From a virus (taxonomy: Duplodnaviria > Heunggongvirae > Uroviricota > Caudoviricetes), in the IMG/VR virus record IMGVR_UViG_2737471753_000001, positions 1 to 33,365 of that record: a stretch of DNA of 33,365 bases. One strand, 5' to 3'. The notes beneath the pieces are model-generated. The model was not told the origin of the DNA, ran no database searches, and saw only the letters and a program-made list of their open reading frames with translations. Made by a program: the position numbers and the translations under genes. This document shows, one piece after another, positions 1 through 24,480 of this stretch. Positions within the stretch are counted from its first letter, which is position 1. Every line of letters starts with the position of its first letter.

Positions 1-249
1 TCACAATGACAGGCTTAGTTGATCCCTTCCGTAGTGAGACGCCGGAAAGGCATCGTGGGGTATGAAGTCAGGCGGTAACGGCGCAATACCTGCGCGCTTT
101 GTGACTTCCCTTTCCACGCTATTAAGCGTGGTAAATGACCGGCTACATTCCAGATTCTGGCACTGGTGATACTGCCTGATTGTCATGTTGGTCATTCTTC
201 GGCTGGTGCGGGTGCGGGCCATAGCGCCGCAGAATGGACATCTGAACAT
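1..249 (-). CDS. ogr: Ogr/Delta-family zinc-finger late transcription activator
   Basis: 82-aa ORF MFRCPFCGA...YHQCQNLECSRSF with a C-x2-C...C-x4-C zinc-finger pattern, closely resembling P2 Ogr as recalled; SD-like GGGGAG upstream of the ATG at 249; stop codon is the first 3 nt of the window. Confidence 0.85.
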   Translation of the reverse strand: MFRCPFCGAMARTRTSRRMTNMTIRQYHQCQNLECSRSFTTLNSVEREVTKRAGIAPLPPDFIPHDAFPASHYGRDQLSLSL

Positions 250-287
250 AATGATGACTCCCCGTGAGAGTTGAACTCCATTTCATT

Positions 288-1397
288 TTATTCAGTTTCC
301 GCTATCCAGTCAGGAATTTTTGCTTCAAGCTCAAGCTGCGTGGTAAAACCGCTGTTATCAATGGTGTGCTCGGCCTTTGCAATAATCCAGTCCTGATTGT
401 CGATGTCATTTTTGAAGCCTGTCACCGTGCCATGCATTTCAGGGTAGAGTTCTGCACGTCCACGCGCCAGCGTGATGGAGAATGATGCGGCTCCGCGTTG
501 TAGCTGCTGCCACTTTGCCGCTGCTGCGCGTCTTGCTGCCTGCTCGTTCTGATAAGTTTTGCGTAACACAAACACATTGCCTTCCGCGCCTTCCATATAA
601 TCACCTTCACGGCTGCTGCTTTTCTCCTTTTTGGGTTTTGGCGGTTTGCGGCGTTTCACGCTGACTTTTTTCTTTTTCCCGTAATTAAGATCAAGCCAGT
701 AAGCGCGTACCCCCGTATACGCTTCGCGGTCAGCAATGCGGAACTGATGGCGATCGCCGCTGCTGCGTGTGATGGCGAACGATGGCAACGGCTGGCCCTG
801 TGCGTTCACGCCACCGCCGGGCATGATGAATAACAGATTACCGCTTTTTACCGTGGTGATTGCGCCCAGCATTTCCGCCATGCGCGTAAGGAAGGACATG
901 TCGCTTTCTTCAGTCTGGTCGGCGTGGTCGATTTCGATATCCATCAGCATTTCGCTGATTTGCGGTTTCAGGCCGTACCGATGAGCGATGGCGGATACCA
1001 CACGCTCAACGGTCACATCATGCCATGACACCTCACGTTTAACGTTAAATTCATCCCGAAAATCTGCGCTTCTGGCTGAAACAGTCAGCCTGTCCGGCGG
1101 TCCTTCGTGAGCGATTTCATCAACAATGTAAGTGCCTTTTTCTGTCAGCGGTTCTCCTTTCCAGCCAATGAGAACCGTCAGGCGCGCGCCCCGTGGCGGT
1201 AGCTGCAACTGACCATCCGCATCATCCAGCGTGATGGTGAGCTGGTCCGCCTCAAATCCCCGGTTGTCGGTCAGTGACAGGCTCATCAGGCGCTCTGCCA
1301 CGCCTGACAGCGTTTTACCCTCCGCGAGAATATCAAAATCCGGCATTTTCACGGGGTCTGTGCCCTGACTGAGCAATTGCATGGTGGTGTCGGTCAT
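288..1397 (-). CDS. D: tail protein D (late control gene D family)
   Basis: Track ORF 288..1418 (376 aa) matches P2 gpD in size and sequence character; start placed at the internal ATG at 1397 (MTDTTMQLL...) because it is preceded by a strong SD (AGGGAGGGAAAG) whereas the ATG at 1418 is not. Confidence 0.85.
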   Translation of the reverse strand: MTDTTMQLLSQGTDPVKMPDFDILAEGKTLSGVAERLMSLSLTDNRGFEADQLTITLDDADGQLQLPPRGARLTVLIGWKGEPLTEKGTYIVDEIAHEGPPDRLTVSARSADFRDEFNVKREVSWHDVTVERVVSAIAHRYGLKPQISEMLMDIEIDHADQTEESDMSFLTRMAEMLGAITTVKSGNLLFIMPGGGVNAQGQPLPSFAITRSSGDRHQFRIADREAYTGVRAYWLDLNYGKKKKVSVKRRKPPKPKKEKSSSREGDYMEGAEGNVFVLRKTYQNEQAARRAAAAKWQQLQRGAASFSITLARGRAELYPEMHGTVTGFKNDIDNQDWIIAKAEHTIDNSGFTTQLELEAKIPDWIAETE

Positions 1398-1453
1398 CTT
1401 TCCCTCCCTGTGCGGCATGGTCGCATGTGCGTGCGGAGGGGGTTACTGCTTTT

Positions 1454-1477
1454 TGTTGTCGCCGGGTCGGGAGAACG
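1454..1477. promoter_or_regulatory. candidate Ogr-type late-activator binding site (TGTTGT-N12-AGAACG) in the D/FI divergent region
   Basis: TGTTGTcgccgggtcgggAGAACG about 80-100 bp upstream of the FI ATG; the same TGTTGT-N12-AGAAC architecture recurs at 20463..20486 between O and P; resembles the P2 late-promoter TGT-N12-ACA dyad as recalled (one mismatch, TGT-N12-AGA). Confidence 0.4.
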
Positions 1478-1553
1478 GCGCAGGGGTGAGATTACGCGCG
1501 TGGTGGGTGATGATTGTTGCCGAATCATTTAACGGATACAAGGGGCTGAAGCT

Positions 1554-2738
1554 ATGAGTGAAACTCGTTTTCATGGTGCCCGTGTTACGGAAAATACCGA
1601 CCTGGTAACAGCGATTAACGATGTTGATTCCAGCGTTATCGGTATCGTGGCAACGGCGGATGATGCGGACGCGAAGCTGTTCCCGCTGAACAAGCCCACA
1701 CTGCTGACCCGCGTCAATGACGTGCTGGGAAAATGCGGAACAACGGGGACGCTTTATCGTGCGCTTAAGGCCATCGCAGACCAGGTGAGCACAAAGGTGA
1801 TCGTCGTTCGCGTGGCTGAACACAAAGAAGAAGACGGAAAGACGCAGGATCAACTGGTTATCGGTGGTTCTGAGGATGACGGCAGCTATACGGGGATGTA
1901 TGCGCTGCTTGTTGCAGAGCAGGATGAAAGCATCGGATACCGTCCGCGTATTCTGGCCGCGCCGGAGCTGGACACGGAGGCGGTAACAAAATCCCTGTGC
2001 GTGATTGCGGGTAAACTGCGCGCGTTTGTGTATGCCACATGTCATGGTTGTAACACGATGGCTGAGGCGATTACCTACCGCCAGAAATTCAACGAACGTG
2101 AGGTGATGCTCTTATGGCCTGACTTCATCGCCTACAACCCGAAAAGTGGCAAAAACGAAACGTTCCCCGCGCCTGCTTATGCGTGCGGCCTTCGTGCGTA
2201 CATTGACCATGAGCAGGGCTGGCACAAATCGCTGTCCAACGTTCCGGTTAAAAATGTGCTGGGAATGTCCAGGCATGTGTTCTGGTCGTTGCAGGCCGAA
2301 GACAGTGATGCCAACAGCCTCAATAACAAAGAAATCACGACCATTATTCGTCGCAACGGGTTCCGCTTCTGGGGCAACCGCACACCGGAAACGAACGCCT
2401 ACATCTTTGAGGTGTATACCCGAACCGCACAGGTGCTGGCTGATTCAATTGCGGAAGCGCAGTTTGAAACCATCGACAGTCCACTGACGCCTGCGAACGT
2501 GAAGGATGTTATCAGTGCCATCAGGGCAAAACTGGATTCGCTGGTTACTGCCGGGAAACTGATTGGTGCGGAGTGCTGGTATGACGTGGTGGATAACGGC
2601 ACCACGAATTTACGTCAGGGACGTGTGCGTATTCGCTACAAATATACGCCCGTTCCGCCACTGGAAGACATGGAGCTTTACCAGACGTTTACTGATGAAT
2701 TCTTTGGTCCCGCATTTGCGGTGCTGGGAGGTGCCTGA
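1554..2738 (+). CDS. FI: contractile tail sheath protein
   Basis: 394-aa ORF with RBS AAGGGG at 1540..1545; sequence and size match P2 gpFI (recalled as 396 aa), e.g. conserved ...GWHKSLSNV...GFRFWGNRT...YTPVPPLE... Confidence 0.92.
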   Translation: MSETRFHGARVTENTDLVTAINDVDSSVIGIVATADDADAKLFPLNKPTLLTRVNDVLGKCGTTGTLYRALKAIADQVSTKVIVVRVAEHKEEDGKTQDQLVIGGSEDDGSYTGMYALLVAEQDESIGYRPRILAAPELDTEAVTKSLCVIAGKLRAFVYATCHGCNTMAEAITYRQKFNEREVMLLWPDFIAYNPKSGKNETFPAPAYACGLRAYIDHEQGWHKSLSNVPVKNVLGMSRHVFWSLQAEDSDANSLNNKEITTIIRRNGFRFWGNRTPETNAYIFEVYTRTAQVLADSIAEAQFETIDSPLTPANVKDVISAIRAKLDSLVTAGKLIGAECWYDVVDNGTTNLRQGRVRIRYKYTPVPPLEDMELYQTFTDEFFGPAFAVLGGA

Positions 2739-3250
2739 TGGCTGTACCAAAACATCTTCGCTTTTTTACGTTGTTTGTGGATGGTGAAAACGAAGTGGGT
2801 AAAGTGACATCCGTCACGCCGCCCAAACTGACGCGCAAAACCGACAGCTATCGTGGTGGTGGCATGATGGGGGCGGTAAGTATTGATCTCGGTCTGGACG
2901 ACTCCGCGCTTGATGCGAGTTTTGTTATGGGGGGAGCTGTTCGTGCGCTGTTCCTTAAATATGGCGGCACGATTGACGGCACGCTGCTGCGTTTTGCGGG
3001 TGAATACTACACCGATGCAGAAAGCGATCTGTATGAAATCGAGATGCGCGGACGTGTGACGGAAATTGATATGGGGGAAGCCAAACAGGGCGAAGCCACA
3101 TCACACACTTACGCTGTCAAAAACACCTACTACAAGCTGAGCGTTAACGATCGCCCGCTGTGGGAAATCGACCTGTTGAACCACATCTACCGGAAGGACG
3201 GCAAGGACATTGTGCCTGACCGTATCCGTTCCGCGCTTGGGCTTGGCTGA
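2738..3250 (+). CDS. FII: tail tube protein
   Basis: 170-aa ORF whose ATG overlaps the FI stop (ATGA-type coupling); size and sequence fit P2 gpFII. Confidence 0.9.
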   Translation: MAVPKHLRFFTLFVDGENEVGKVTSVTPPKLTRKTDSYRGGGMMGAVSIDLGLDDSALDASFVMGGAVRALFLKYGGTIDGTLLRFAGEYYTDAESDLYEIEMRGRVTEIDMGEAKQGEATSHTYAVKNTYYKLSVNDRPLWEIDLLNHIYRKDGKDIVPDRIRSALGLG

Positions 3251-3305
3251 TAAGTAATATGCAGGCGGCGCAGTGCGTCGCCTCTGACTGAAAAGGAGAC
3301 AACTG

Positions 3306-3680
3306 ATGAAAGACATCGATACTGAAACCCGGAATAACACCGTGGCGGATGATGTGACGGCAGGTGAGGATATGGCTGTCGAACGTGGCGTAAAACTGAC
3401 CCGACCAATTGAGCGTGGTGGCGAAAAAATCACGTATGTGGAGATCACCGGGGCTATTGAACAGGCTGGATCCCTGCGTGGTCTGTCGCTGTCTGATGTG
3501 CTGAATCTGAAAGCGGATACCATGTTCACGCTGTTGCCTCGCGTGACCTCGCCACGACTGGATGAAGTGATGATTAAAAAAATGTCGTCACGCGATTTTA
3601 TTCAGTTGTGCGCTGTGGCTGTAAATTTTATGAGCGAGCCAGACTCTGGCGCGAAGAGCGTGCAGGAGACGGCGGCGTAA
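3306..3680 (+). CDS. E: tail assembly chaperone E (tape-measure chaperone)
   Basis: 124-aa ORF directly upstream of the tape-measure gene with a long overlapping -1 frame ORF, as in the P2 E/E' arrangement. Confidence 0.8.
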   Translation: MKDIDTETRNNTVADDVTAGEDMAVERGVKLTRPIERGGEKITYVEITGAIEQAGSLRGLSLSDVLNLKADTMFTLLPRVTSPRLDEVMIKKMSSRDFIQLCAVAVNFMSEPDSGAKSVQETAA

Positions 3681-3844
3681 TCACCCTGGTGTGCTTTGAT
3701 CACATCGAAGATCTGGTGGCAGATATCGCCGCCATTTTTAACTGGTCGCCCGCCGAAATCTTCATGATGACGCCCGGCGAAGTGGTTAGCTGGCGTGAGC
3801 GGGCGGCACTTCGCAGCGGGAATGCAGACAATGAAGACTCTTGA
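3306..3844 (+). CDS. E+E' fusion chaperone produced by a predicted programmed -1 ribosomal frameshift
   Basis: The -1 frame is open from 3578 to 3844 and overlaps the T start; an X_XXY_YYZ slippery heptamer A_AAT_TTT lies in the E frame at 3623..3629. Mirrors the conserved chaperone frameshift upstream of tape-measure genes. Confidence 0.5.
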
Positions 3845-6638
3845 TATCCGGGTCGCTTTCAGCGCCGTTGACAGGCTGACCCGACCTGCCGAAAACGCCC
3901 GCCGCCTGATGGGGCAGTTTGGTGACTCCATCCAGCGAACGCAGGGGGCGATCAAAAATCTCGAGCGTCAGGCGCGATCATTTGAGCGCGCCCGCGACGC
4001 TGTCAGTAAAGCGGATGCGGGCATCGTGAAAGCACGACGCCAGCTTAACGCCCTTAATCAGTTACAACGCACGGGTACAGTGCTCAGCGAAAAACAACAA
4101 AAGCTGATGCAGCAGTTAAGCACCCGGCTTGAACGCCTGAATGAATCGCGTACACGGGAAATTCAGAAAATGCGGGAGCTTGGCGGAGAGCTGAAACGCC
4201 ACGGCATTTCCCTGACAGGCAGCGATAACACCATCCAGCAGGCCATCAGACGCACCGAACAGTACAACAACCAGCTTGAACGCGAACGGCAGGCGCTTGC
4301 GCGTGTAACGCGGGCGCGTGAGCGGTATTCGCGCGCGCAGGAAACAGCGGGAAAACTGAAAACAGGTGGTGCGCTGGCAATTGGTGCGGCAGCGGCGGGC
4401 GGCTATGCTGCCGGGCGTTTTTTGCAGCCTGCGATCGGGTTCGGGAAAGAGATGTCCCGCGTTCAGGCGCTGACGCGAATCGACCAGAACAGCCCACAGT
4501 TTAAGGCGCTGCGTGAGCAGGCGTTAAAACTTGGCTCTGAAACGCAGTTCACCGCTGGAGATGCCGCCAGTGGACAGGCATTTCTTGCAATGGCTGGCTT
4601 CACACCACAGGCCATTCAGGCTGCGCTTCCCGGTGTGCTGAGCATGGCAACGGCTGGCGGTATGGATCTCGGCGAGACGGCGGATATTGGCTCAAACATC
4701 CTGACGCAGTTCGGCCTTTCTGCCGACCAGATGGACCGGGTCGGTGACACGCTCACCGCAGCGTTTACCCGTACCAACACTGACCTTCGCGCACTGGGCG
4801 AAACCATGAAATATGCAGGTCCGGTGGCGGGCAAGCTGGGAATATCGCTGGAGCAGGCCGCAGCGATGGCGGGCGTGCTGGCGAATATGGGTATCAGGGG
4901 AAGTGATGCCGGGACGGCAATGCGTGCCAGCCTGGCTCGTCTGGCATCACCGCCAAAGGCGGCAGCAGAGGCGCTGAAAGAGCTTGGTGTGGCAGTCTCT
5001 GACGCGAACGGCAAAATGCGCCCGATGGAGGATGTGCTGGCCGATCTTTATAAAGCCACCCGCAAATACGGGGAAGTTGACCGGGTATCGTTCTTTAAGG
5101 ACATTGCCGGAGAAGAGGCTTTCACATCGTTTATGGCGCTCGTTGATGCAGCGGGTGACGGTTCCTTACCTAAACTGAGAAAAGAACTTGAAGGCGCACG
5201 CGGTGAGGCTGAACGCACAGCAAAGGTTATGGCCAACAACCTTGATGGCGATCTGAAATCACTCGGCAGTGCATGGGAAGGGTTGCGCATCCGCATTGCA
5301 GATCTGATTGACGGTCCGCTGCGTTCTGTCACGCAGTGGCTCACGCGGGTGGTATCAAGGGTGACGGCGCTGGCGCAGGCCCATCCGGCACTGACGCGCC
5401 AGCTACTGATAGCAGGCGGTGCGTTGCTGGCAATGACTGCAACGATTGGCTCGTTGTCGCTGGTTATTGGCGTGCTTCACGGGAAACTGGCCACGTTACG
5501 TCTTGGTTTTTCTCTCCTGACCGGATCAATGAATGTCGTCAGGGTGCTGCCAGCACTATGGGGAATGGTAACAGGTTCCATCTCGTTGCTGGGTGGCGCT
5601 ATCGGGGCGCTGTTCAGTCCGGTCGGATTGATTGTTGCCGCGTTTGTGGCTGCGGCGGTTCTCATCTGGAAATACTGGGAACCCATCAAGGCGTTTTATG
5701 CCGGGGTGTTCAGTGGGATTATGGAACGGCTGGCTCCGTTGCGCGAAACCTTTGAACGGTTTGGTCCTGTTTTTGATGTCGTGCGCGATGGGATTATTCA
5801 GCTCTTTAACTGGTTTAAATCGCTGCTGTCACCGATGGAGTCCAGCAAGGAAACGCTGGATAAATGCACCAGTGCTGGCGAGATATTCGGTAACGTTCTT
5901 GGTGGCGCGCTACAGCTTGTTCTGACGCCTGCAAAAATGCTGCTGGATACGCTGGCGTGGATACTTGAAAAACTCGGTGTGCTTCCGGATGAAGCGGAAA
6001 GGGCGAGAAAGAAAATCGAAGACGCACAGCGTGCGGCCATTCTTCAGGACAAGGTTGCCTTGCTTCAGGGGGACCTGGCGAAAATCAATCCGCCGAAGCC
6101 TGTAGAAAATGGCAATGGCACCGGAGGTGATAACCCCAAAGACAATAAACCGCTCACAGACAGCAATACTGGTACGCTGCGCAGACTCAGCAAAATTGCT
6201 GATAACACAGGTAAGCTGGTTGATGAGACGAAAAAACGCATTGGCCCCGGCGATATTGTCTTTAAGAACCTGCCCCGCGCACTTGCTGTTCGTGGGGAGT
6301 GGCAGGAGCGGAAGATTGCGCAGGTCAGTAAGCCTGCCCCCGCAATTAATATCACACCCGTGGTCCCGGCTCCGCTGCCTCCGGCGCTGGTCCCTGTTGT
6401 TGCGGCCAGCTCCCGCCCGGTGGCGGAGGCCATACGATCTCCAGTGGCATCAGTTCCTGTAACTTCCCGTAACCGGGAGCCTGTTGCCTCAGGATTTGGC
6501 GGTGAAATTCATGTTCATCTGCATAACGTCGTTACACAGAATCCCCGCGAACTGGCGAAACTGGTCGGTGAAATGGTCAGGGCAGAAATGGAACGGCGCG
6601 CCCGTGCCGGGCGTGGCAGTTTTTACGATAAAGATTGA
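3831..6638 (+). CDS. T: tail tape measure protein
   Basis: Long ORF (track 3795..6638, 947 aa) with coiled-coil-like N-terminal half, Gly/Ala-rich hydrophobic segments and a long C-terminal region; start placed at ATG 3831 (MKTLDIR...) with GGGA about 10 nt upstream; ATG 3822 is an alternative. Confidence 0.9.
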   Translation: MKTLDIRVAFSAVDRLTRPAENARRLMGQFGDSIQRTQGAIKNLERQARSFERARDAVSKADAGIVKARRQLNALNQLQRTGTVLSEKQQKLMQQLSTRLERLNESRTREIQKMRELGGELKRHGISLTGSDNTIQQAIRRTEQYNNQLERERQALARVTRARERYSRAQETAGKLKTGGALAIGAAAAGGYAAGRFLQPAIGFGKEMSRVQALTRIDQNSPQFKALREQALKLGSETQFTAGDAASGQAFLAMAGFTPQAIQAALPGVLSMATAGGMDLGETADIGSNILTQFGLSADQMDRVGDTLTAAFTRTNTDLRALGETMKYAGPVAGKLGISLEQAAAMAGVLANMGIRGSDAGTAMRASLARLASPPKAAAEALKELGVAVSDANGKMRPMEDVLADLYKATRKYGEVDRVSFFKDIAGEEAFTSFMALVDAAGDGSLPKLRKELEGARGEAERTAKVMANNLDGDLKSLGSAWEGLRIRIADLIDGPLRSVTQWLTRVVSRVTALAQAHPALTRQLLIAGGALLAMTATIGSLSLVIGVLHGKLATLRLGFSLLTGSMNVVRVLPALWGMVTGSISLLGGAIGALFSPVGLIVAAFVAAAVLIWKYWEPIKAFYAGVFSGIMERLAPLRETFERFGPVFDVVRDGIIQLFNWFKSLLSPMESSKETLDKCTSAGEIFGNVLGGALQLVLTPAKMLLDTLAWILEKLGVLPDEAERARKKIEDAQRAAILQDKVALLQGDLAKINPPKPVENGNGTGGDNPKDNKPLTDSNTGTLRRLSKIADNTGKLVDETKKRIGPGDIVFKNLPRALAVRGEWQERKIAQVSKPAPAINITPVVPAPLPPALVPVVAASSRPVAEAIRSPVASVPVTSRNREPVASGFGGEIHVHLHNVVTQNPRELAKLVGEMVRAEMERRARAGRGSFYDKD

Positions 6639-6650
6639 GGAGTCATGGCT

Positions 6651-7139
6651 ATGATGATGATCTACGGCATGTTTGTTTTTGAGCTGCGCACGCTGCCGCA
6701 TCAGCAGTTACAGCAAAACAAAAGCTGGCGGCATGTGAAAAATGAACGCGTTAACCGTTCAGCAAGCTGGCAGTATATCGGTGCAGGTGATGATCGCATC
6801 GTTCTTTCTGGTGTGCTTTATCCTGAAATTACAGGTGGCGAAGTGTCGCTGTCGCTGCTGACCACGCAGGCGTATACAGGACGACCCTGGCCTTTGATTG
6901 ATGGCGTCGGGCAGATTTACGGCATGTATGTCCTGACCGGAACGAATACGACCCGTTCCGAGTTTGATCGCTACGGTAAGGCGAAAAAGATAGAATTTTC
7001 ACTGACCCTTGAACGCTGTGATGAGGATTTGCGGGAGCGCCTGCAATCCTCATCGTTCAGTGATATGCTGTCCGGCTTCAAAGATAAGGTGACATCATCT
7101 CTTAACAGCGCGGCCAGTTCAGTTAAAGGGCTGTTCTGA
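6651..7139 (+). CDS. U: tail protein U
   Basis: Track ORF 6645..7139 (164 aa) resembles P2 gpU; SD GAGGAG at 6636..6641 is best spaced for the ATG at 6651 (MMMIYGMFVF...). Confidence 0.85.
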   Translation: MMMIYGMFVFELRTLPHQQLQQNKSWRHVKNERVNRSASWQYIGAGDDRIVLSGVLYPEITGGEVSLSLLTTQAYTGRPWPLIDGVGQIYGMYVLTGTNTTRSEFDRYGKAKKIEFSLTLERCDEDLRERLQSSSFSDMLSGFKDKVTSSLNSAASSVKGLF

Positions 7140-7150
7140 TTTAACACAAA

Positions 7151-7186
7151 AACCGCTAATGGTCAGATTAGCGGTTATTTTGTTTT
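7151..7186. terminator. bidirectional intrinsic terminator between convergent U and invertase genes
   Basis: Perfect 10-bp stem AACCGCTAAT / ATTAGCGGTT with 6-nt loop GGTCAG, preceded by an A-run and followed by ATTTTGTTTT. Confidence 0.75.
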
Positions 7187-7762
7187 CTGACTCTTCTCTA
7201 TTGTTCCGCTTGATTCTCCTGCGGGGTGGTAACGATAAATCGTCGATGTACCAATGCCGTAAATTATTGCCAGTTGTTTTCTGTCGTGACCGTTTTTAAT
7301 CAGCCTTGCTATTTGCTCATGCTGTTCTTTTGTCAGCTTCGGTCGACGTCCGCCTGTGCGCCCCCGTGCGCGCGCTGCCGCCAGTCCGGCCAGTGTACGT
7401 TCAACAATTAATTCACGTTCCATTTCAGCCAGGGCACCCATCACGTGGAAGAAAAAACGCCCCATTGGAGAAGATGTATCTATGCTGTCGGTCAGACTGC
7501 GAAAATTAATCCCTCGCTCCCGTAGTTCTCCGACGAGAGAAATCAGATGTTTCATGCTTCGCCCAAGGCGATCCAGTTTCCAGACAACCAGCGTGTCACC
7601 TTTTTGAAGCCGCTTTAAAGCGCGTTTTAATCCCGGTCGGTCTGTCTTTGTCCCGCTTAATTTATCTTCAAATATTTGTTCACATCCTGCACAAACAAGA
7701 GCGTTTCGTTGCAGGTCTGTATTCTGGTCATTTGTTGATACCCTTACATAACCAATCAGCAC
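7175..7762 (-). CDS. pin: serine recombinase, DNA invertase of the Pin/Gin/Hin/Cin family
   Basis: N-terminus LIGYVRVSTNDQNTDLQRNAL... (catalytic Ser region), resolvase core ...WKLDRLGRS...SPMGRFFFHVMGALAEMERELI... and a C-terminal HTH; start placed at the GTG giving (M)LIGYVRV, as in Gin/Pin; track ORF extends to a TTG at 7780. Confidence 0.9.
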   Translation of the reverse strand: MLIGYVRVSTNDQNTDLQRNALVCAGCEQIFEDKLSGTKTDRPGLKRALKRLQKGDTLVVWKLDRLGRSMKHLISLVGELRERGINFRSLTDSIDTSSPMGRFFFHVMGALAEMERELIVERTLAGLAAARARGRTGGRRPKLTKEQHEQIARLIKNGHDRKQLAIIYGIGTSTIYRYHPAGESSGTIEKSQKTK

Positions 7763-7816
7763 ACTGAATCTCCCGTCCAAAAGCGCAAATCATGCCATGC
7801 AGGCCGGAAACGGCCA

Positions 7817-7842
7817 TTATCTAAAACCTCGGTTTACAGGAA
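7817..7842. other. left inversion crossover site (gix/hix-like, 26 bp)
   Basis: TTATCTAAAACCTCGGTTTACAGGAA; inverted-repeat partner of 10847..10872; a 24-bp perfect inverted repeat CCTCGGTTTACAGGAAACGGTAAA spans 7827..7850 and 10839..10862; matches the Gin/Hin crossover-site pattern as recalled. Confidence 0.85.
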
Positions 7843-8784
7843 ACGGTAAATCAGGCTTCTGGCGCATTACAGAAAAACCAGAACGGCGCAGATATTCCGG
7901 GGAAAGATACCTTCACCAAAATATTGGGGCCTGCCGCGCATATAGCGCATGGCTGAATATTGGTGGCGATAGTCAGGTCTGGACAACCGCACAATTCATT
8001 TCGTGGCTGGAGAGTCAGGGGCATTTAACCATCCTTACTGGATGTGCAAAGGCTCATGGCTTATGCAAATAATAAGGTCATTACAGATACAGGTTGCGGA
8101 AATATTTGTCTTGCAGGTGCTGTGGTGGAAGTTATTGGCACCCGCGGCGCAATGACCATACGCGTTACCACGCCGAGCACGTCCAGCGGTGGCGGAATCA
8201 CTAACGCTCAATTCACTTATATTAATCATGGTGATGCTTACGCTCCTGGCTGGCGACGAGACTACAACACGAAAAACCAGCAGCCTGCATTTGCTTTAGG
8301 GCAAACAGGACGCAGGGTCGCAAATGATAAAGCTGTTGGCTGGAACTGGAATAGCGGCGTTTATGATGCAGATATCAGTGGCGCATCGACATTAATCCTC
8401 CACTTTAATATGAATGCGGGGAGTTGCCCTGCTGTACAGTTCCGCGTGAATTACAGAAATGGCGGTATCTTTTATCGTTCAGCGCGTGATGGTTATGGCT
8501 TTGAAGCTAACTGGTCAGAGTTTTACACCACAACACGCAAACCCTCTGCGGGAGATGTTGGTGCATATACGCAGGCAGAATGTAACTCAAGTTTATTACA
8601 GGTATTCGCCTTGGCGGTCTGTCATCTGTTCAGACATGGAATGGTCCTGGCTGGTCTGACAGGTCAGGTTATGTCGTTACTGGTTCAGTTAACGGAAACC
8701 GTGATGAATTAATTGATACAACTCAGGCAAGGCCAATTCAGTATTGCATTAATGGAACGTGGTATAACGCGGGAGTATTTAATT
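7843..8784 (+). pseudogene. alternative tail-fibre C-terminal (receptor-binding) cassette, currently not fused to H, apparently interrupted by frameshifts
   Basis: Reading out from the left crossover site in the H frame gives fibre-like sequence that stops after about 42 codons; the protein-like reading continues through three further frames (track ORFs 7797..8072, 8044..8712, then a frame ending ...[17 protein letters not shown]...), with shifts at A- and G-runs. Confidence 0.45.
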
Positions 8785-9234
8785 ATGATGCACTTAAAAA
8801 ATATTACTGCTGGCAACCCTAAAACAAAAGAGCAATACCAGCTAACAAAGCAATTTAACATCAAATGGCTTTATTCAGATGATGGAAAAAACTGGTATGA
8901 GGAACAAAAGAATTTCCAGCCAGACACTTTGAAAATGGTCTATGACCATAACGGCGTTATTATTTGTATTGAAAAGGATGTTTCAGCAATTAATCCGGAA
9001 GGCGCAAGCGTCGTTGAATTACCTGATATTACAGCAAATCGCCGGGCTGATATTTCGGGTAAATGGATGTTCAAAGATGGCGTAGTGATAAAGCGAACTT
9101 ATACCGAGGAGGAACAGAGGCAGCAGGCAGAGAATGAAAAGCAAAGCCTGTTGCAACTTGTCAGGGATAAAACCCAGCTATGGGACTCACAGCTACGGCT
9201 GGGTATCATTTCCGACGAGAATAAACAAAATTAA
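8785..9234 (+). CDS. tail fibre assembly protein (Tfa; Mu U / P2 G family), plus-strand copy
   Basis: [22 protein letters not shown]...[41 protein letters not shown]...; RBS GGGA upstream of ATG 8785. The conserved Tfa C-terminus (...[28 protein letters not shown]) continues in another frame to about 9316, implying a 1-nt shift near 9225. Confidence 0.7.
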
Positions 9235-9328
9235 CCGAGTGGATGCTCTATGCGCAGAAGGTCGAATCCACAGACACCTCCAGCCTGCCAGTAACGTTTC
9301 CAGAACAACCAGAATGAAACAAGGCCCG

Positions 9329-9850
9329 CTATCGGGCCTTAATTTTATTCAGGCTTTTGTGGCCATTCAGGATTTGCCGTATCCACACGGCTGACCAGAA
9401 CACTATAGCGTTCCATGACTCCAGTCGTGCGCGTTCCTCATCCGTCGCCATATTCAGCCTGACAGCGCGTTCCAGTGGCTGAATAACGTTTTCTGCTTCG
9501 GAAAGTAACGCGGCCTTTTGTGATTCGGCCTGTTGTTGTTGCTCGTCTGCCGTATAAATCCGTTTAACCACAGCTCCGTCCTTAAACATCCACTTACCGG
9601 AATCATCAGCACGACGATTAGCTGTAATATCAGGAACCTCAACGACGCTATAACCTTCAGGGTTAAGCGTGGAGCATCTTTGTGATGGCGACAATAATAT
9701 TATTTGCATCGTAAACAATCTTTATGTGTCTGGCTGAAAGTTTTTCACTTCCTCATACCAGTTTTTTCCGTCTTCGGACCATAACCAGATAACATCAAAT
9801 TCTTTGTTAGCTGATATTGTTCTTTTGTTTTGGATTTCCAGACTTAATAT
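9329..9850 (-). pseudogene. P2 G-like tail fibre assembly gene remnant (minus-strand copy) with N-terminal frameshifts
   Basis: Intact C-terminal part in track ORF 9329..9718 (...[34 protein letters not shown]...); N-terminal part [13 protein letters not shown]... is readable only by switching frame at least three times. Confidence 0.55.
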
Positions 9851-10846
9851 TTTTTAAATGCTGCATAAATTACACCTGTGCGACGTTATACCATGTGCCA
9901 TTGATGTATTTTTGTATTGGTCTGAATACTGCCGGATCATCGCCATCAACTTCACCGACAATGCCAAGCCCGTAATTGCATGACCTGATTTCTCATACAT
10001 CACGCCTTTTTGCATAGTCTGAACAACACGTGTGCCAAGTCGGACATCTCTCACATAACGTGAATCAAATTGCCATAGTTGCCGGGAATAACTTGCGAGC
10101 CGCAAAGCCAGTTCCCGTTATTATCCATGTACGCCTGACCATCGGTACCATTGGCTGTCCTTGAGTTATTAATCATGTAGATGCCAAATTGCTTATTCCC
10201 CAGTCCACCAATCATAAATTTGCGATCAGCGTGGTCCTGACGAAGTAATGCCTGCGCACCATCGGTGGATACCGCATTGCGTCCCCAAATAACATTCTGG
10301 TCACGCATATGAATCCACATGCCGGTACTACTGTTAATTGCAAAACGGTTTGCAATATATCCCTGTAACATCAAGACCATGCCCATGCTTATCCGACCAG
10401 TTCTAAGGTTAATCGTAAAGGGGCGTAATGGCCCTATATCACCATTTTCTCCCTCATTCTCTCGTGTAGGGATGATATGCAGGCATTCTTCAGAACGGCG
10501 AAAAATGGCACCAAAAGATGAATTAAATATCCTCAGTGCATTGACTGTCGATATTTTTACTTCACTGCTGAAAAGGCTTTAACAAGACAGACAAAGCATC
10601 CCATTTAAGATTCATCAGGTCTTTTGTTGTGGTGCTTTGTTTGCTTCTCCATTTGAAATATTCATTGCCGTTGTCGCCTGTTTCAAACCACATGTATGAA
10701 TCAGTATCGCTATCGGCATCATTTTAAAACCAATCTTTGCCCAGTCAGTATTTCGAATCCAGGCAAGGATTGAGTCGTTTTCAAATTAAGCCCACCGGAC
10801 AAGGTATCGCCATTTTTTTGCACGGCGTACCAGCCCTGTTTACCGT
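9851..10846 (-). pseudogene. P2 H-like tail-fibre C-terminal cassette (currently joined to H) degraded by frameshifts and stops
   Basis: Fibre-like sequence is scattered over three frames (GNAVQKNGDTLSGGL..., ENDSILAWIRNTDWAKIGFK..., ...FDSRYVRDVRLGTRVVQ..., ...GEVDGDD..RPIQKYINGTWYNVAQV*), with a stretch around 10390..10560 closed in all frames. In the current orientation H terminates 21 codons past the crossover site. Confidence 0.5.
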
Positions 10847-12136
10847 TTCCTGTAAACCGAGGTATTCGATAACAGCGGCAACGGTCGATTTCGCAAGAAT
10901 ATCCCGCCCGACTTTTGTCAGGGTTGCCAGGCTGGCGACATCATTCCCCGTAAAATACGGAAACTTGTCTGCCGCAGTAGCAAGCCCGGCCAGCGCCGTC
11001 AGGGTGGCATCTTTCGGTTGCTTACCCGCAAGCGCTTTAGTCATGGTGGTCGCAAAATTCGGGTCGTTTCCCAGCGCCGCCGCTAACTCGTTCAGCGTAT
11101 TCAGTGCGTCAGGTGACGAATCTACAAGGGCGGCAATCGCAGCCATAACGAAAGCCGTGCTTGCGATTTGGGTATTATTCGTTCCCTGTCGCGCAGTTGG
11201 CGTTGTTGGCGTTCCGGTCAACGCAGGACTGTTTAAGGGCGCTTTCTTGTTCGTTTCATCCATTACCGCCTTAACCGCTTTCGATGTCGCGGCCAGTGTT
11301 TCAGACGTGCTGTTGGTGGCACTACTGAGCTGGACTATCCCTTTTTGTGCCGTCGTGGCGTCCTGAGCGGTATATTTTGCGTTAGCAAGGTCATACGCGG
11401 CCTTTACTGCTTTCGGCGTTGCAGCCTGCGTTTCAGACGTGCTGTTGGTGGCGCTACTGAGCTGGACAAGGCCTTTTCGTGCCGTCGTGGCGTCCTGAGC
11501 GGTATATTTTCCGTTAGCTAGGTCATACGCGGCCTTAACCGCTTTCGGCGTTGCAGCCTGCGTTTCAGACACGCTGTTAGTGGCGCTACTGAGTTGAACA
11601 AAGCCTTTTGCGGTCAGCGAGGCGTCCGGGTGACGTCGTGACTGTTCATGCTCTTTCAGTTTGTCATCCACGTAATCCACTGTGGCCATCACCATGGTGT
11701 TATCCACGGTAAGCGCCACGGTGGCCGTGCTGGATACGGTCAGAATGGTGCGAAATGTTTGTGCACGTCCGGACCCTTCGGCAACGGTTGGTTTGTAACT
11801 TTCGGCAGTATTGCCCACCGCGATTAAATCGCCGTGCTCATCAAATACACCAATTTCCCGGATCCAGAATCCGCCCGTTTCAGGAGGAATAACCAGCTCC
11901 GCAATAATGCGGTTCTGATGTGTTGCGTCCAGGATGACGCGATTAACAGTGTGTCGCCACACCTCATGCACCAGACGGGTCTGCTTACTGTCTGGTGTGG
12001 GCAACGTGCCGCCACCGTCGCCCACGGCCATATGAGTCAGGCGGACAGGCTTACCATCTGGCGCGGCTGCCTGAGCTAATTTTTTGGCACCTGTATCGGT
12101 GATAACGGTTTTAAATTTTCGTGTTGTGGTACTCAT
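10781..12136 (-). CDS. H: tail fibre protein H, constant N-terminal region plus a short out-of-module tail
   Basis: 451-aa ORF with conserved fibre N-terminus and an internal threefold 44-aa repeat; positioned after I as in P2; the crossover site lies 22 codons before its stop. Confidence 0.85.
   Translation of the reverse strand: MSTTTRKFKTVITDTGAKKLAQAAAPDGKPVRLTHMAVGDGGGTLPTPDSKQTRLVHEVWRHTVNRVILDATHQNRIIAELVIPPETGGFWIREIGVFDEHGDLIAVGNTAESYKPTVAEGSGRAQTFRTILTVSSTATVALTVDNTMVMATVDYVDDKLKEHEQSRRHPDASLTAKGFVQLSSATNSVSETQAATPKAVKAAYDLANGKYTAQDATTARKGLVQLSSATNSTSETQAATPKAVKAAYDLANAKYTAQDATTAQKGIVQLSSATNSTSETLAATSKAVKAVMDETNKKAPLNSPALTGTPTTPTARQGTNNTQIASTAFVMAAIAALVDSSPDALNTLNELAAALGNDPNFATTMTKALAGKQPKDATLTALAGLATAADKFPYFTGNDVASLATLTKVGRDILAKSTVAAVIEYLGLQETVNRAGTPCKKMAIPCPVGLI
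10847..10872. other. right inversion crossover site (gix/hix-like, 26 bp) inside the H reading frame
   Basis: TTCCTGTAAACCGAGGTATTCGATAA; inverted partner of 7817..7842; encodes ...VIEYLGLQET... in the H frame, analogous to the crossover site inside Mu gene S. Confidence 0.85.
11269..11640. repeat. tandem direct repeat, 132-bp unit, about 2.8 copies, inside H
   Basis: Units begin at 11269, 11401 and 11533 and are nearly identical; they encode a repeated 44-aa fibre shaft segment (...QLSSATNSTSETQAATPKAVKAAYDLAN.KYTAQDATTA.KG.V...). Confidence 0.85.
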
Positions 12137-13561: not shown

Positions 13562-13912
13562 TTACTCCCTTAGCGTGATGGTTAATTCAACATTCTGCAT
13601 GGTCTGCATGACAGTGCCCGACAGCGTCACCCCGGCGCGGCCTCCCGCTTTCCAGACAACGTCGATGGCATCCAGGGCAATGCGGGGTTCCCATCGTGTC
13701 AGCGCAATCACGGCAGCACTCATGCATTGCAGACGCGTGGTGTTATTCATGGGTTCGTCAATCAAATCAGGCACAAGGCTGCCATATTCCCGTCGCATAA
13801 CCCGGCTTGCCAGCGGGGTGGTCAGGATATCCCTGACTGACTGTTTCAGGTGCTCCATATCGTTCAGGTTTCCCGTCCCGTCCGGATTCATTCCTGTGTA
13901 GCGGGTTGTCAC
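13562..13912 (-). CDS. W: baseplate wedge protein W
   Basis: 116-aa ORF; size and position match P2 gpW. Confidence 0.85.
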   Translation of the reverse strand: MTTRYTGMNPDGTGNLNDMEHLKQSVRDILTTPLASRVMRREYGSLVPDLIDEPMNNTTRLQCMSAAVIALTRWEPRIALDAIDVVWKAGGRAGVTLSGTVMQTMQNVELTITLRE

Positions 13913-14490
13913 TGCGGGCCTCCTGTCGAATCGCTGCCGCCTTTCACGCCACCGTGTTTATGCGTATGCACTGTGATGCCGTTTGAGGTGAAGTTGCCGC
14001 CGCTGTGCGTGATATTGCCGCTCATCTTTCCTCCTTTTGTGACGTCAAGCGTCGCCGTTCTCAGAAGGTTTGTGCATTCCACGACGGGCGTATCCAGTTT
14101 CACGCTGACGGATGCCTGTAAAGTGGCCGTTTTCATGCCGCTGGCGCTCAGTGCGCCTGCGTCCGCGTCGTAGCGGAACACCGCGCCATCCGGCGCGCTG
14201 ACCACGATTTCTTTCAGGCTTTTGCCGGGTGCCGGACTGGCATCACTCCACAGGCTGCCAATTATCATGGCGGTTTCCGGGTTGCCGCCAATGCAGGCAA
14301 TTACCACCTGTTCGCCTGGTGATGGCGGCAGCCACACATTGAAGGCTCCCGCGCGCGTGGTGTTCCAGCGCAACCATCCTGTTTCCAGTTCGCCGCTGCG
14401 AACGCGCACGCGCCAGGACTTCTCATCAATTTCAGAGATGATCCCGGTGCGGATGATATTGCTCAGCAGTCGCATGAGTTCTGCGCTCAC
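13909..14490 (-). CDS. V: baseplate spike/hub protein V
   Basis: 193-aa ORF, ...IIRTGII...GEQVVIA..GG......LHTHKHGG... resembling P2 gpV; start overlaps the S stop. Confidence 0.85.
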   Translation of the reverse strand: MSAELMRLLSNIIRTGIISEIDEKSWRVRVRSGELETGWLRWNTTRAGAFNVWLPPSPGEQVVIACIGGNPETAMIIGSLWSDASPAPGKSLKEIVVSAPDGAVFRYDADAGALSASGMKTATLQASVSVKLDTPVVECTNLLRTATLDVTKGGKMSGNITHSGGNFTSNGITVHTHKHGGVKGGSDSTGGPQ

Positions 14491-15131
14491 CGTACAGCCT
14501 CCGCAATCCGGCCCAGCATCGTGTTATAAATCAGGCGCTCATCTGCCTGGCTGATACCCAGCAGCTCACGTACCGGGTAATCGGTGAAAATGCCCGGCGC
14601 AACCTGATCGCGCTCACCGAACTGATGAACGCGGGCAATACGTGCGGACACGCCGCTGTAACCCACCGTCACACCGGAAGCATCTGCACGGGCTTTCAGG
14701 TAGCGGGCGGTGCGCAGTTTTACGAACATGGGGACGCGCTTTGTGCTGTCCTGGTTGATGCGCCGGGTGCGTATTTCCAGAAAACGGTCGATGTCATCCC
14801 GGTAAAACGTGCGGATATTGTTTTTATCCTCATCCCACCCGGTAATGGTTCGCCCGTATTTCCCCGTGTCGTGATGCCAGTTTTTCAGCGTGCGTGCTTC
14901 GTTATTCCAGATAAAGCGAATGCGCTCCTGTATCCGGGTTACGCGGCGTCTGCGTGGTGTCCACGCGGTCCCGTCCGGCGCTTTCTGTGACCGGATACGC
15001 GCCTGCTGGGCGCGGCGTAAATCCTGTGCCAGCTTTCTGGCGATGTTATTGATGGCCTGCTGATTCAGGCTGTCGCGGATGGCCTCAAAGGTTTCATCCA
15101 CGCGGGTGAATGCCTTATCCATCGCTTTCAC
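14487..15131 (-). CDS. S: tail completion protein S
   Basis: 214-aa ORF immediately downstream of R with overlapping start/stop; longer than recalled for P2 gpS, so the start is uncertain. Confidence 0.7.
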   Translation of the reverse strand: MKAMDKAFTRVDETFEAIRDSLNQQAINNIARKLAQDLRRAQQARIRSQKAPDGTAWTPRRRRVTRIQERIRFIWNNEARTLKNWHHDTGKYGRTITGWDEDKNNIRTFYRDDIDRFLEIRTRRINQDSTKRVPMFVKLRTARYLKARADASGVTVGYSGVSARIARVHQFGERDQVAPGIFTDYPVRELLGISQADERLIYNTMLGRIAEAVR

Positions 15132-15582
15132 CCCACGTCACATCCTGGAATACATGCGACCAGTCGCCTTCGGAAGAGGGCAGACGGGGTTTTGGCTCCG
15201 GCAGGTGTTCTGCCTGCGGTGTGCCCTGACTGTTGCGCGTGATGCGAACGCGTTCCCACAGGGGGAGCGTAAACAGGAGGTCGGCGCTGTCATCGTCATT
15301 GATAACGGCGGAGAATTTGATGTCCTGATTACGCTCAGGGTTGAGCAACAACTGTGGCTGATTTTCGGATAACCACGCCAGCAGCGGCAGCGTGAGGTCA
15401 TCCAGCTCCCCGGCGTAATCCATGACAAACATCACCATCTGATAGCGGTAAACAAACGATGGGGTTTCTCCTGTCGTTTCAATGTTGCCGCTCTCCACGA
15501 AAATGGTGAATTTTTCCGGGTTGGCCTGACACCATCGGCATGAACGGGTCATGGCTTCACGCAGGGAATCAGTTTTCAGCAT
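15115..15582 (-). CDS. R: tail completion protein R
   Basis: 155-aa ORF, the size recalled for P2 gpR, in the conserved position after the lysis genes. Confidence 0.8.
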   Translation of the reverse strand: MLKTDSLREAMTRSCRWCQANPEKFTIFVESGNIETTGETPSFVYRYQMVMFVMDYAGELDDLTLPLLAWLSENQPQLLLNPERNQDIKFSAVINDDDSADLLFTLPLWERVRITRNSQGTPQAEHLPEPKPRLPSSEGDWSHVFQDVTWGESDG

Positions 15583-20393: not shown

Positions 20394-20462
20394 AGTTTTT
20401 GCCCCTCTGACTGGTTCTTCAGTCATGATGGCAAAGCGTAACAGGCTGATACAAAGGGCTTT

Positions 20463-20486
20463 TGTTGTAAGAAAACGGCCAGAACA
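20463..20486. promoter_or_regulatory. candidate Ogr-type late-activator site (TGTTGT-N12-AGAACA) between divergent O and P
   Basis: TGTTGTaagaaaacggccAGAACA, same architecture as 1454..1477; centred roughly 55 bp from plausible start points for both flanking operons. Confidence 0.4.
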
Positions 20487-20547
20487 GGGGGTTAAGGAGA
20501 ACGGTTTCGCGCGCGGGTAATCTTCCTGTAATTACTCAGGGGGAGCA

Positions 20548-23345: not shown

Positions 23346-23770
23346 CGCGCTTCGCTTGTCTGCTGCTTCGCCGGGGCATAAAAAATTTATGCCCCGACTC
23401 TCCAGCTCCTGTATCAGTCAGATAATTTCACGACGCTTTCCTGCTGATTGCCATCATCGACAGTCAGACTCTTACGCAATCCCACCGCGTTGACTGCATG
23501 TTCTCGCCGTCTCAGTGCGATTTTGACGGCCTTACCTTTCACCCCATCAAATCAAAAGCTCTCACGTCTTTTTCACGCTCAGCGTGAGAAATACAGCCAT
23601 TCTGTTGTATCTCTGCGACATCGTTCAGGGAATGCTATTTACCCCCTGAAACGCGGGCTGTTCCCCCGTCACCTGCGCGCAGAAAAAACGCGTTTTTTTG
23701 TGCACGCACGGATCCCTGACGGATCCAGCCGCCACGCGGGCCGGAAGGGCAAAAAGTCGTTCAAAAAAAT

Positions 23771-23796: not shown

Positions 23797-23810
23797 GTGT
23801 GAAGAGCAAT

Positions 23811-24477: not shown

Positions 24478-24480
24478 TTA

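What the first reader, a model, noticed from the sequence alone, without database searches (positions are those of the whole stretch)
1398..7186. Tail sheath-tube-tape-measure block (FI-FII-E-T-U) is inverted relative to D/ogr and to H, breaking P2 synteny
In P2 the genes run co-directionally as H-G-(Z/fun)-FI-FII-E-T-U-D-ogr, with D as the last gene of the F operon. Here D and ogr are on the minus strand at 1..1397, FI..U are on the plus strand at 1554..7139, and U ends at a bidirectional terminator convergent with the invertase gene. D is therefore separated from its operon and shares a 156-bp divergent region with FI. The left breakpoint coincides with where P2 has its Z/fun accessory locus. 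I found no gix-like site at either breakpoint, so this is not a simple Pin inversion at canonical sites. D would need its own promoter, possibly the dyad at 1454..1477 acting bidirectionally.
Basis: partly seen in the sequence, partly recalled or inferred. Interest (0 to 1): 0.6.

Follow-up and report, generated by a model that had tools for sequence, protein, structure and literature searches.

The report
Clade-wide inverted tail-gene block, P2-like prophage
The tail sheath-to-gpU gene block does run opposite to its direction in phage P2, but this is the fixed, normal layout of a large known group of P2-like prophages (about a quarter of complete E. coli genomes), and gene D appears to be switched on from the back side of the same activator site that drives the sheath operon.

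Summary
FI-FII-E/E'-T-U lie on the plus strand (1554-7139). A 156-bp divergent region separates D from FI, and a bidirectional terminator (7151-7176) faces a Gin-like invertase gene. It is neither an artefact, nor a switch, nor new. The same contiguous layout occurs in Xuanwuvirus phages (P88 and relatives, 93-97% nt). It also occurs in Senquatrovirus, Reginaelenavirus and Reipivirus records, and in 61 of 61 Enterobacterales loci whose gpD is at least 61% identical. All 19 loci with gpD at most 54% identical keep P2 order. The native D/FI junction is contiguous in 1355 of 5426 complete E. coli genomes; the flipped junction is in none. The only gix sites flank the tail-fibre segment, and SEN5 has the inversion without an invertase. 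In the intergenic region, a TGT-N12-ACA-type box (1457-1474) has -10-like hexamers at positions 44-49 from its centre on both sides: 29/34 on the D side and 32/34 on the FI side in non-redundant relatives, against 2/15 on the back side in collinear phages. This mirrors P2's shared pP/pO activator site. A bidirectional Ogr-dependent pD/pF pair is therefore likely but not mapped.

The parts
1..249 (-). ogr-type late activator gene (82 aa, C4-x2-C7-x22-C30-x4-C35 zinc finger)
   Evidence: PF04606 Ogr_Delta scores 62.5 bits against a cut-off of 26.3. The translation shows the motif. PGAP annotates it as ogr/Delta-like.
288..1397 (-). gene D (gpD, baseplate hub/late control D), 369 aa; start at 1397 rather than the longer ORF start at 1418
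   Evidence: phrog_52 E=1e-166; PF05954. PGAP uses the same start. GGGAGGG lies 5 nt upstream of the ATG.
1417..1425 (-). predicted pD core promoter: extended -10, TG(1425-1424)-c-GACCAT(1422-1417) read on the minus strand; predicted start about 1409-1411
   Evidence: An A2/T6 hexamer starts at position 44 from the box centre in 29/34 non-redundant relatives, and G at position 42 is conserved. It is absent at that position in collinear phages, 2/15. This is inferred, not mapped.
1457..1474 (.). Ogr-type activator box TGTCGCCGGGTCGGGAGA (TGT-N12-AGA; centre between 1465 and 1466), shared by pD and pF
   Evidence: It is positionally conserved as TGT-N12-ACA/AGA in about 62 of 67 related intergenic regions. 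The same box type lies in the window's O/P region at 20466-20483.
1484..1514 (+). predicted pF core promoter: -35-like GGGTGA 1484-1489, -10 GATGAT 1509-1514; predicted start about 1520-1522
   Evidence: The consensus gCgtGa lies at positions 19-24. An A2/T6 hexamer lies at positions 44-49 in 32/34 relatives, and in 13/15 collinear phages.
1554..2738 (+). FI, tail sheath
   Evidence: phrog_23 E=9e-125; PGAP annotation.
2738..3250 (+). FII, tail tube
   Evidence: phrog_55. PGAP annotates it as 'major tail tube protein'.
3306..3844 (+). E (3306-3680) and the E' frameshift extension (about 3689-3844), tail assembly chaperones
   Evidence: phrog_103. PGAP annotates a GpE family protein at window 3689-3844. 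The P2 E/E' arrangement is shown.
3831..6638 (+). T, tape measure protein (longest ORF starts at 3795; PGAP start is 3831)
   Evidence: phrog_28 E=3.5e-214.
6645..7139 (+). U, tail protein
   Evidence: PF06995 scores 131.5 bits. It is 100% identical to P88 gpU.
7151..7176 (.). bidirectional intrinsic terminator between U and the invertase gene
   Evidence: A 10-bp stem with T-runs on both strands; sequence.
7175..7762 (-). Gin/Pin-like serine DNA invertase (neighbour of the block, not its cause)
   Evidence: PF00239 plus PF02796. It is 92.6% nt identical to the Mu gin region. Its gix sites lie at 7824-7842 and 10847-10865 only.

Best explanation
The window is an almost complete P88-like (Xuanwuvirus, Peduoviridae) prophage. 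In it, the FI-FII-E/E'-T-U segment, together with its late promoter pF, was inverted once in an ancestor of a large Enterobacterales-infecting clade. The arrangement has been fixed ever since. One breakpoint lay just upstream of the pF activator site and the other at the U/D boundary. As a result the tail genes are now read as two divergent late units from one 156-bp control region. pF drives FI..U rightward to the terminator at 7151-7176. A new promoter, pD, drives D leftward, probably reading on into ogr. Both use the single dyad-symmetric Ogr box at 1457-1474. Ogr, encoded at 1-249, binds that box and recruits RNA polymerase to core promoters whose -10 elements sit 44-49 bp from the box centre on either side. 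This places the box near -55 for both, as at P2's divergent pP/pO pair. The shown parts are the arrangement, its distribution and fixation, and the conserved mirror-symmetric motif geometry. The inferred parts are the transcription start sites, the Ogr dependence of pD, and read-through into ogr.
For: Arrangement and fixation:
- Megablast gives one contiguous match over D<-|->FI..U|<-invertase in P88, P884B11, 520873, 503458, 500465-2, Shae_phiSM, PhiR44_2 and Chuche. Annotated maps agree.
- D and U lie on opposite strands in SEN4/SEN5 and in the Klebsiella Kp48xx phages, but are collinear in all more distant Peduoviridae listed.
- 61/61 genome loci with gpD at least 61% identical are inverted, and 19/19 with gpD at most 54% identical are collinear.
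- Nearest neighbours of D, FI and U always belong to the same arrangement class. For D, every inverted-class sequence is closer to all other inverted ones than to any collinear one.
- The native junction is in 1355/5426 complete E. coli genomes. The flipped junction is in 0 of the 1411 genomes that carry both halves.

Promoter:
- TGT-N12-ACA/AGA sits centrally in the intergenic region across genera.
- A -10-like hexamer starts at position 44 on the D side in 29/34 relatives and on the FI side in 32/34. At all other offsets it occurs in 0-21%.
- TG is conserved at positions 41-42 on the D side.
- Only 2/15 collinear loci have such a hexamer on the back side of pF (Fisher p=2.6e-6).
- The P2 record annotates one activator site for pO and pP, with start sites 55-56 bp to either side.
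- The window's O/P region has the same box and geometry.
- An Ogr zinc-finger protein is encoded.
- P2 late promoters and their Ogr dependence are summarised in PMC3931495.
Against: - No transcript data exist, so both start sites are predictions.
- The window's box has AGA instead of ACA. Its pD -10 (GACCAT) and -35 region are weak, and the predicted D leader is only about 13-15 nt.
- 5 of 34 lineages lack an A2/T6 hexamer at position 44 on the D side.
- Five loci (L023, L028, L030, L045, L051) had no box within one mismatch and were anchored less securely. L045 and L051 were left out.
- The anchoring on the box was done by me, and in the collinear control the FI-side -10 helped to choose the anchor. 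The back-side count is unaffected by that.
- An in-situ inversion cannot be strictly told apart from an ancient module replacement in the opposite orientation.
Confidence: 0.7

Rival explanations
1. D is transcribed from an Ogr-independent promoter, either a constitutive or otherwise regulated sigma-70 promoter in or near the 156-bp region. The dyad then serves only pF.
For: The D-side element is an extended -10 (TG-n-hexamer), a type that can work without a -35 element or an activator. The box in the window deviates from the consensus (AGA). No start site or Ogr footprint is available.
Against: The D-side hexamer keeps an invariant distance to the box centre (position 44 in 29/34). Its distance to the D start codon varies from about 7 to 30 nt. 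The geometry mirrors the FI side and P2 pP/pO. Late-only expression of a structural baseplate gene is expected.
Confidence: 0.22
2. The inverted block arose by replacement: a FI-U module from another phage lineage was inserted in the opposite orientation, rather than by inversion in place.
For: P2-like phages are mosaic. The window's own ogr allele is only 48% identical to that of P88 although the neighbouring D is 98% identical. The exact breakpoints are no longer recognisable.
Against: FI, FII, U and D diverge from P2 to a similar degree (45, 42, 46 and 49%), comparable to V and J (46 and 55%). D and FI identities co-vary across the 80 loci, and the arrangement classes coincide for D, FI and U. 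pF carries the same box type as the O/P region.
Confidence: 0.06
3. The block is a programmed, reversible invertible segment flipped by the adjacent Gin/Pin-like invertase at non-canonical sites.
For: The invertase gene abuts the right end of the block.
Against: No inverted repeat flanks the block, and the only gix pair is at 7824-7842/10847-10865. SEN5 and most of the 61 inverted loci have no invertase there, while two collinear loci do. The flipped junction is found in 0 of 1411 E. coli genomes.
Confidence: 0.01
4. Assembly artefact or a strain-specific rearrangement.
For: None beyond the difference from P2.
Against: The identical junction is found in 1355 complete E. coli genomes and in independently sequenced phage genomes from four genera.
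Confidence: 0.01

Closest known systems
Escherichia phage P88 and other Xuanwuvirus (P884B11, 520873, 503458, 500465-2, Citrobacter phage Shae_phiSM)
   Same: They are 93-97% nt identical over window 295-8000 in one contiguous piece. Gene order and orientation are the same: D(-), FI..U(+), invertase(-), invertible tail-fibre segment, H(-). The D/FI intergenic region is 157 bp with the same box.
   Different: The ogr allele downstream of D is only 48% identical. The cargo between Q and A differs: P88 has ParM/partition genes, while the window has an M78-like gene. The P88 paper does not comment on the inversion.
P2 divergent late promoters pP/pO (NC_001895 features 3016, 3057-3087, 3127)
   Same: One dyad-type activator site lies between two divergent late operons, with start sites 55-56 bp either side of its centre. 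The TGTTGT half-site and dependence on an Ogr zinc-finger activator are also shared. The window's D/FI region has the same size class and the same symmetric -10 placement.
   Different: In P2 this architecture serves P and O only, and D is the last gene of the pF operon. Here it is used a second time, for D and FI. The pD/pF start sites are unmapped.
P2 F operon (FI-FII-E-E'-T-U-D, then ogr)
   Same: It has the same genes, the same internal order FI to U, the E/E' frameshift pair, and ogr directly after D.
   Different: FI-U is inverted as a unit. D has its own upstream region and a different N-terminal 12-18 residues. Protein identities to P2 are only 33-49%.
Salmonella phages SEN4/SEN5 (Senquatrovirus); Klebsiella Kp4871-3 (Reginaelenavirus) and Kp4847-1 (Reipivirus)
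   Same: They share the inverted FI-U block and a divergent D/FI region of about 147-157 bp. That region has an exact TGT-N12-ACA (SEN5, Kp4871-3) or TGT-N12-AGA (Kp4847-1) box.
   Different: gpD is only 63-72% identical. SEN5 has no invertase between G and U.
Mu G segment / Gin
   Same: The adjacent 3-kb tail-fibre segment (7817-10872) has gix inverted repeats. The invertase gene region is 92.6% nt identical to Mu gin.
   Different: This system concerns the tail-fibre C-termini only and does not delimit the FI-U block.

Membership tests
Xuanwuvirus (P88-like Peduoviridae) | High nucleotide identity and collinearity with the type phage P88 across the genome | tested here: inconclusive
   95.3% identity over 96% of window 1-8000 in one piece. 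Gene order matches from D to A. The whole-genome identity that genus membership would rest on was not computed. The ogr region and the cargo region differ.
P2-type Ogr/Delta-dependent late promoter (for pF and the proposed pD) | TGT-N12-ACA partial dyad upstream of the core promoter | tested here: met
   TGT-N12-AGA at 1457-1474, one mismatch. It is exact in SEN5, Kp4871-3 and many of the 67 related regions.
P2-type Ogr/Delta-dependent late promoter (for pF and the proposed pD) | Activator site centred near -55 from the transcription start | not testable with these tools
   No start sites are available. -10-like hexamers at positions 44-49 on both sides would place the starts at about 55-57, as at P2 pP/pO.
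P2-type Ogr/Delta-dependent late promoter (for pF and the proposed pD) | Cognate Ogr/Delta zinc-finger activator (CX2CX22CX4C) encoded by the phage | tested here: met
   PF04606 scores 62.5 bits, and the motif is C4, C7, C30, C35.
P2-type Ogr/Delta-dependent late promoter (for pF and the proposed pD) | Transcription requires the activator (and its contact with the RNA polymerase alpha subunit) | not testable with these tools
   This needs reporter assays or in vitro transcription.
P2 F operon as a single unit FI..U-D | D co-directional with and directly downstream of U | tested here: not met
   D is on the opposite strand, 5.2 kb from U.
Gin/Pin/Hin-type invertible segment (for the FI-U block) | Inverted-repeat crossover sites (gix/hix) at both boundaries | tested here: not met
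   There are no gix-like sites within 3 mismatches except 7824-7842 and 10847-10865, and no inverted repeat pairs 1398-1553 with 7140-7186.
Gin/Pin/Hin-type invertible segment (for the FI-U block) | Both orientations occur among otherwise near-identical genomes | tested here: not met
   The native junction is in 1355 genomes and the flipped junction in 0 of 1411.

The most novel reading that the evidence does not exclude
An ancient inversion put gene D behind the symmetric Ogr box of pF, and a new core promoter (extended -10 at the mirror position) evolved there. One activator dimer site now fires two tail operons in opposite directions. It also keeps ogr under late positive feedback through a new D-ogr transcript. 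This would be a natural example of promoter birth by co-option of the back side of a dyad activator site, traceable across dozens of genera.
Probability: 0.55. Interest if true: 0.3.

Novelty: already known. Interest (0 to 1): 0.17.

Why it matters
Mostly it matters as a correction. P2 itself is not representative of gene order for a very common group of P2-like prophages, so a difference from P2 here is not a sign of misassembly or recent rearrangement. The useful by-product is a concrete, testable promoter model for gene D in this clade, with coordinates. It may also help with annotation: spurious small ORFs are called in the D/FI intergenic region of P88 and SEN5, and the D and O start codons can be corrected. 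The clade may also include the Pectobacterium, Xenorhabdus, Photorhabdus and Kosakonia genera that make tailocins, but I did not check whether the loci found are those tailocin clusters.

Tried and rejected
- An exact TGT-N12-ACA search in the window found no site at any late promoter. The site only appears with one mismatch, so I relied on cross-genus alignment.
- The generic sigma-70 scan found nothing in 1398-1553 and no more sites than shuffles overall. That is expected for activator-dependent promoters, so it is uninformative.
- The inverted-repeat search for block-flanking repeats gave only short, low-identity chance pairs such as 1347-1372/7425-7450 (26 nt, 77%). I rejected these as recombination sites.
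- A literature search found no explicit description of the inversion or of a D promoter. It covered the P88, SEN4/5, global P2-like diversity, xenorhabdicin, carotovoricin and kosakonicin papers. The library lacks most subscription journals, so absence is weak evidence.
- A Biopython NJ tree timed out. I replaced it with identity-matrix criteria.
- The hairpin scan downstream of U in relatives showed hairpins in many but not all lineages, with no sequence conservation.
Full report
**1. What is in the window**

The window is an almost complete P2-like prophage read from its ogr end to its int end. The genes are as follows:
- ogr at 1-249(-)
- D at 288-1397(-)
- FI at 1554-2738(+) and FII at 2738-3250(+)
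- E at 3306-3680(+), with E' at about 3689-3844
- T at 3831-6638(+); the longest ORF starts at 3795
- U at 6645-7139(+)
- a hairpin with T-runs on both strands at 7151-7176
- a Gin/Pin-type serine invertase gene at 7175-7762(-)
- a 3-kb tail-fibre segment bounded by gix repeats at 7817-7857 and 10832-10872
- then H, I, J, W, V, S, R, lysis genes, L, M, N and O, all on the minus strand
- P and Q on the plus strand, cargo, A, B, cox, C and int

Compared with the annotated P2 record, only FI..U is flipped. D and ogr keep the direction of H and stay next to the int end. The D/FI intergenic region is 156 bp. This includes the absence of gix-like sites at the block ends: the gix core with up to 3 mismatches occurs only at 7824-7842 and 10847-10865.

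**2. Is it unusual? No.**

Close relatives share the layout. Megablast of window 1-8000 against phage genomes gives a single contiguous match across D, the divergent region, FI..U, the terminator and the invertase. The matching phages are P88, P884B11, 520873, 503458, 500465-2, Shae_phiSM, PhiR44_2 and Chuche, at 93-97% identity. The annotated maps of P88 and Shae_phiSM show the same strands. These phages belong to the ICTV genus Xuanwuvirus.

More distant genera share it too. tblastn with gpD and gpU shows the two genes on opposite strands about 5 kb apart in three further groups: Salmonella SEN4/SEN5 (Senquatrovirus), Klebsiella Kp4871-3 (Reginaelenavirus) and Kp4847-1 (Reipivirus). In these, gpD is 63-72% identical to the window's. 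In every listed phage with gpD at most 53% identical, the two genes are adjacent and co-directional. That group includes P2, phiCTX, and Burkholderia, Ralstonia and Mannheimia phages. This indicates that the collinear order is ancestral for the family and the inverted order is derived.

A wider scan gives a clean split. I scanned one genome per bacterial species with a gpD alignment and mapped the window's proteins onto the 80 loci returned.
- All 61 loci with gpD at least 61% identical have FI divergent from D and U convergent with the tail-fibre genes.
- All 19 loci with gpD at most 54% identical are P2-like.
- The inverted loci come from Salmonella, Citrobacter, Enterobacter, Klebsiella, Raoultella, Kosakonia, Kluyvera, Yokenella, Trabulsiella, Pantoea, Erwinia, Mixta, Brenneria, Pectobacterium, Symbiopectobacterium, Serratia, Hafnia, Edwardsiella, Yersinia, Providencia, Morganella, Xenorhabdus and Photorhabdus.

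The sequence data fit a single origin. In identity matrices, the nearest neighbour of every D, FI and U sequence has the same arrangement. For D, every inverted-class sequence is closer to all other inverted ones than to any collinear one. One old event, with D and the block evolving together since, is the simplest reading.

**3. Not an artefact and not a switch**

- A 1-kb query across the D/FI junction is contiguous in 1355 of 5426 complete E. coli genomes. The best match is strain KA0011, where the prophage sits next to fieF and pfkA.
- I built the junction that would exist if the block were flipped to the P2 order (U joined to D). It is found joined in none of the 1411 genomes that carry both halves.
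- SEN5 and most inverted loci have no invertase between the tail-fibre genes and U. Two collinear loci (L068, L085) do have one, between the tail-fibre genes and FI. The invertase is cargo of the accessory hotspot next to the tail-fibre genes and serves the gix-flanked fibre segment.

**4. How D is probably expressed**

*P2 provides a precedent.* The P2 record annotates a single activator-binding site (3057-3087) for the divergent promoters pP and pO. Their transcription starts are at 3016 and 3127, which is 55-56 bp either side of the site centre. P2 late promoters share TGT-N12-ACA and depend on the zinc-finger activator Ogr (PMC3931495).

*The window has the components.* It encodes an Ogr protein with the CX2CX22CX4C motif. 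Both of its divergent late regions contain TTTTGTTGT-N12-AGAAC. These are 1457-1474 between D and FI and 20466-20483 between O and P.

*The box is conserved across genera.* An alignment of the D/FI region from four genera shows the box as the most conserved element. It is an exact TGT-N12-ACA in SEN5 and Kp4871-3. I then anchored 67 related intergenic regions on the box and reduced them to 34 sequences less than 85% identical to one another.

*The -10 placement is mirror-symmetric.* A hexamer with A at position 2 and T at position 6 starts exactly 44 nt from the box centre in 29/34 on the D side and 32/34 on the FI side. At every other offset from 21 to 75 the frequency is 0-21%.
- The D side also conserves TG one base upstream of the hexamer, which is an extended -10. 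It conserves TT at positions 21-22, where a -35 element would be.
- The FI side conserves gCgtGa at positions 19-24.
- The distance from the D-side hexamer to the D start codon varies, while its distance to the box does not. This ties the hexamer to the box.

*A negative control supports specificity.* In 15 collinear P2-type loci anchored the same way, the FI side has the hexamer at position 44 in 13/15. The back side has it in only 2/15 (29/34 against 2/15, Fisher p = 2.6e-6).

*Window coordinates for the model:*

| Element | pD (minus strand) | pF (plus strand) |
|---|---|---|
| -35-like | weak | 1484-1489 (GGGTGA) |
| Extended -10 TG | 1425-1424 | none |
| -10 hexamer | 1422-1417 (GACCAT) | 1509-1514 (GATGAT) |
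| Predicted start | about 1409-1411 | about 1520-1522 |
| Start codon | 1397 (after a GGGAGGG ribosome site) | 1554 |

No start site has been mapped, and I found none in the literature available to me.

**5. Consequences and inferences**

In P2, ogr is directly downstream of D, and the record annotates one terminator after ogr for both the ogr transcript and the F operon. From my own knowledge of P2, ogr is also transcribed late by read-through from pF. This would give selection a reason to keep pD Ogr-dependent, but it is inference. A sigma-70-like site upstream of ogr (CTGACT-17-TAAAAT, 313-285, minus strand) may be ogr's own promoter. That scan found no more sites than shuffles.

**6. Comparison, novelty and score**

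The phage is a member of a known, classified and extremely common group, and the arrangement is visible in deposited annotations. None of the nine papers I opened comments on the inversion or on a D promoter. The promoter model is therefore a small addition, which rests on motif geometry only. I score interest at 0.17. The most novel reading still open is promoter birth by co-option of the back side of a dyad activator site, at probability about 0.55 and interest about 0.3 if shown.

Noticed in passing
window 7817-10872: There is a Mu G-like invertible tail-fibre segment. The 41-nt gix inverted repeats (88% complementary) lie at 7817-7857 and 10832-10872. Internal mirror-image repeats (8730-9131 against 9525-9923) mark two opposed sets of fibre C-terminus and assembly genes. 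The gin region is 92.6% nt identical to phage Mu.
   Followed up: partly
window 1-294: The ogr allele is mosaic. Identity to P88 stops at 295 and P88's ogr-like gene is only 48% identical. Alleles in Trabulsiella, Symbiopectobacterium, Erwinia, Mixta and Pantoea loci are 88-91% identical. The Ogr box in the D/FI region is nevertheless near-identical to that of P88 (two bases differ) and identical to that of Shae_phiSM.
   Followed up: partly
window 20393-20426: The longest O ORF starts at 20426. The second Met (MANEKK..., 20393) aligns with the P2 gpO N-terminus and is the start annotated in P88. With that start the O/P intergenic region is 154 bp, almost the size of the D/FI region. Its box (20466-20483) has -10-like hexamers TAATCT (20518-20523) and CATCAT (minus strand, 20430-20425) at positions 44 and 45.
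   Followed up: partly
window 13909-15582: R, S and V overlap or abut (S 14487-15131, V 13909-14490), with no gap equivalent to P2's orf30/pV region. This lineage seems to have only two late control regions, O/P and D/FI, each divergent. The same holds in P88.
   Followed up: no
window 1426-1437 (D-side positions 29-40 from the box centre): An alternating purine-pyrimidine, CG-rich tract is conserved in the pD spacer across genera. It is CGCGCGCG in most relatives and GCACGCACA in the window. Its role is unexplained. It has no counterpart on the FI side.
   Followed up: no
window 23448-25479: The cargo between Q and the replication genes differs from P88, which has ParM/partition genes there. 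The window has a 332-aa protein with an M78/IrrE-like peptidase domain (weak PADLOC hits to PD-Lambda-2_B, CapP and RmrA). It also has two ORFs (212 and 126 aa) with no family match.
   Followed up: partly
L008 (NZ_JBQPOM010000071.1, 'Vagococcus sp. WN89Y'): A 226-kb contig of a Firmicute assembly carries this enterobacterial prophage with gpD 97% identical. This is probably contamination or a mislabelled assembly.
   Followed up: no
L001 2529-2660; L004 11800-11952: RefSeq/GenBank annotate small 'hypothetical proteins' inside the D/FI intergenic region of P88 and SEN5. They overlap the conserved promoter elements and are probably spurious.
   Followed up: no
L062 (Yersinia aleksiciae), D side of the intergenic region: An ATG lies at positions 56-58 from the box centre, at the predicted transcription start. 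Either this ATG is not the D start, or D is translated from a leaderless mRNA in this lineage.
   Followed up: no
phage records NC_049344.1 and NC_049341.1: Escherichia phages 520873 and 503458 carry an IS100 (IS21-family) insertion inside the region matching window 287-7855. These 'phages' may therefore be defective prophages.
   Followed up: no
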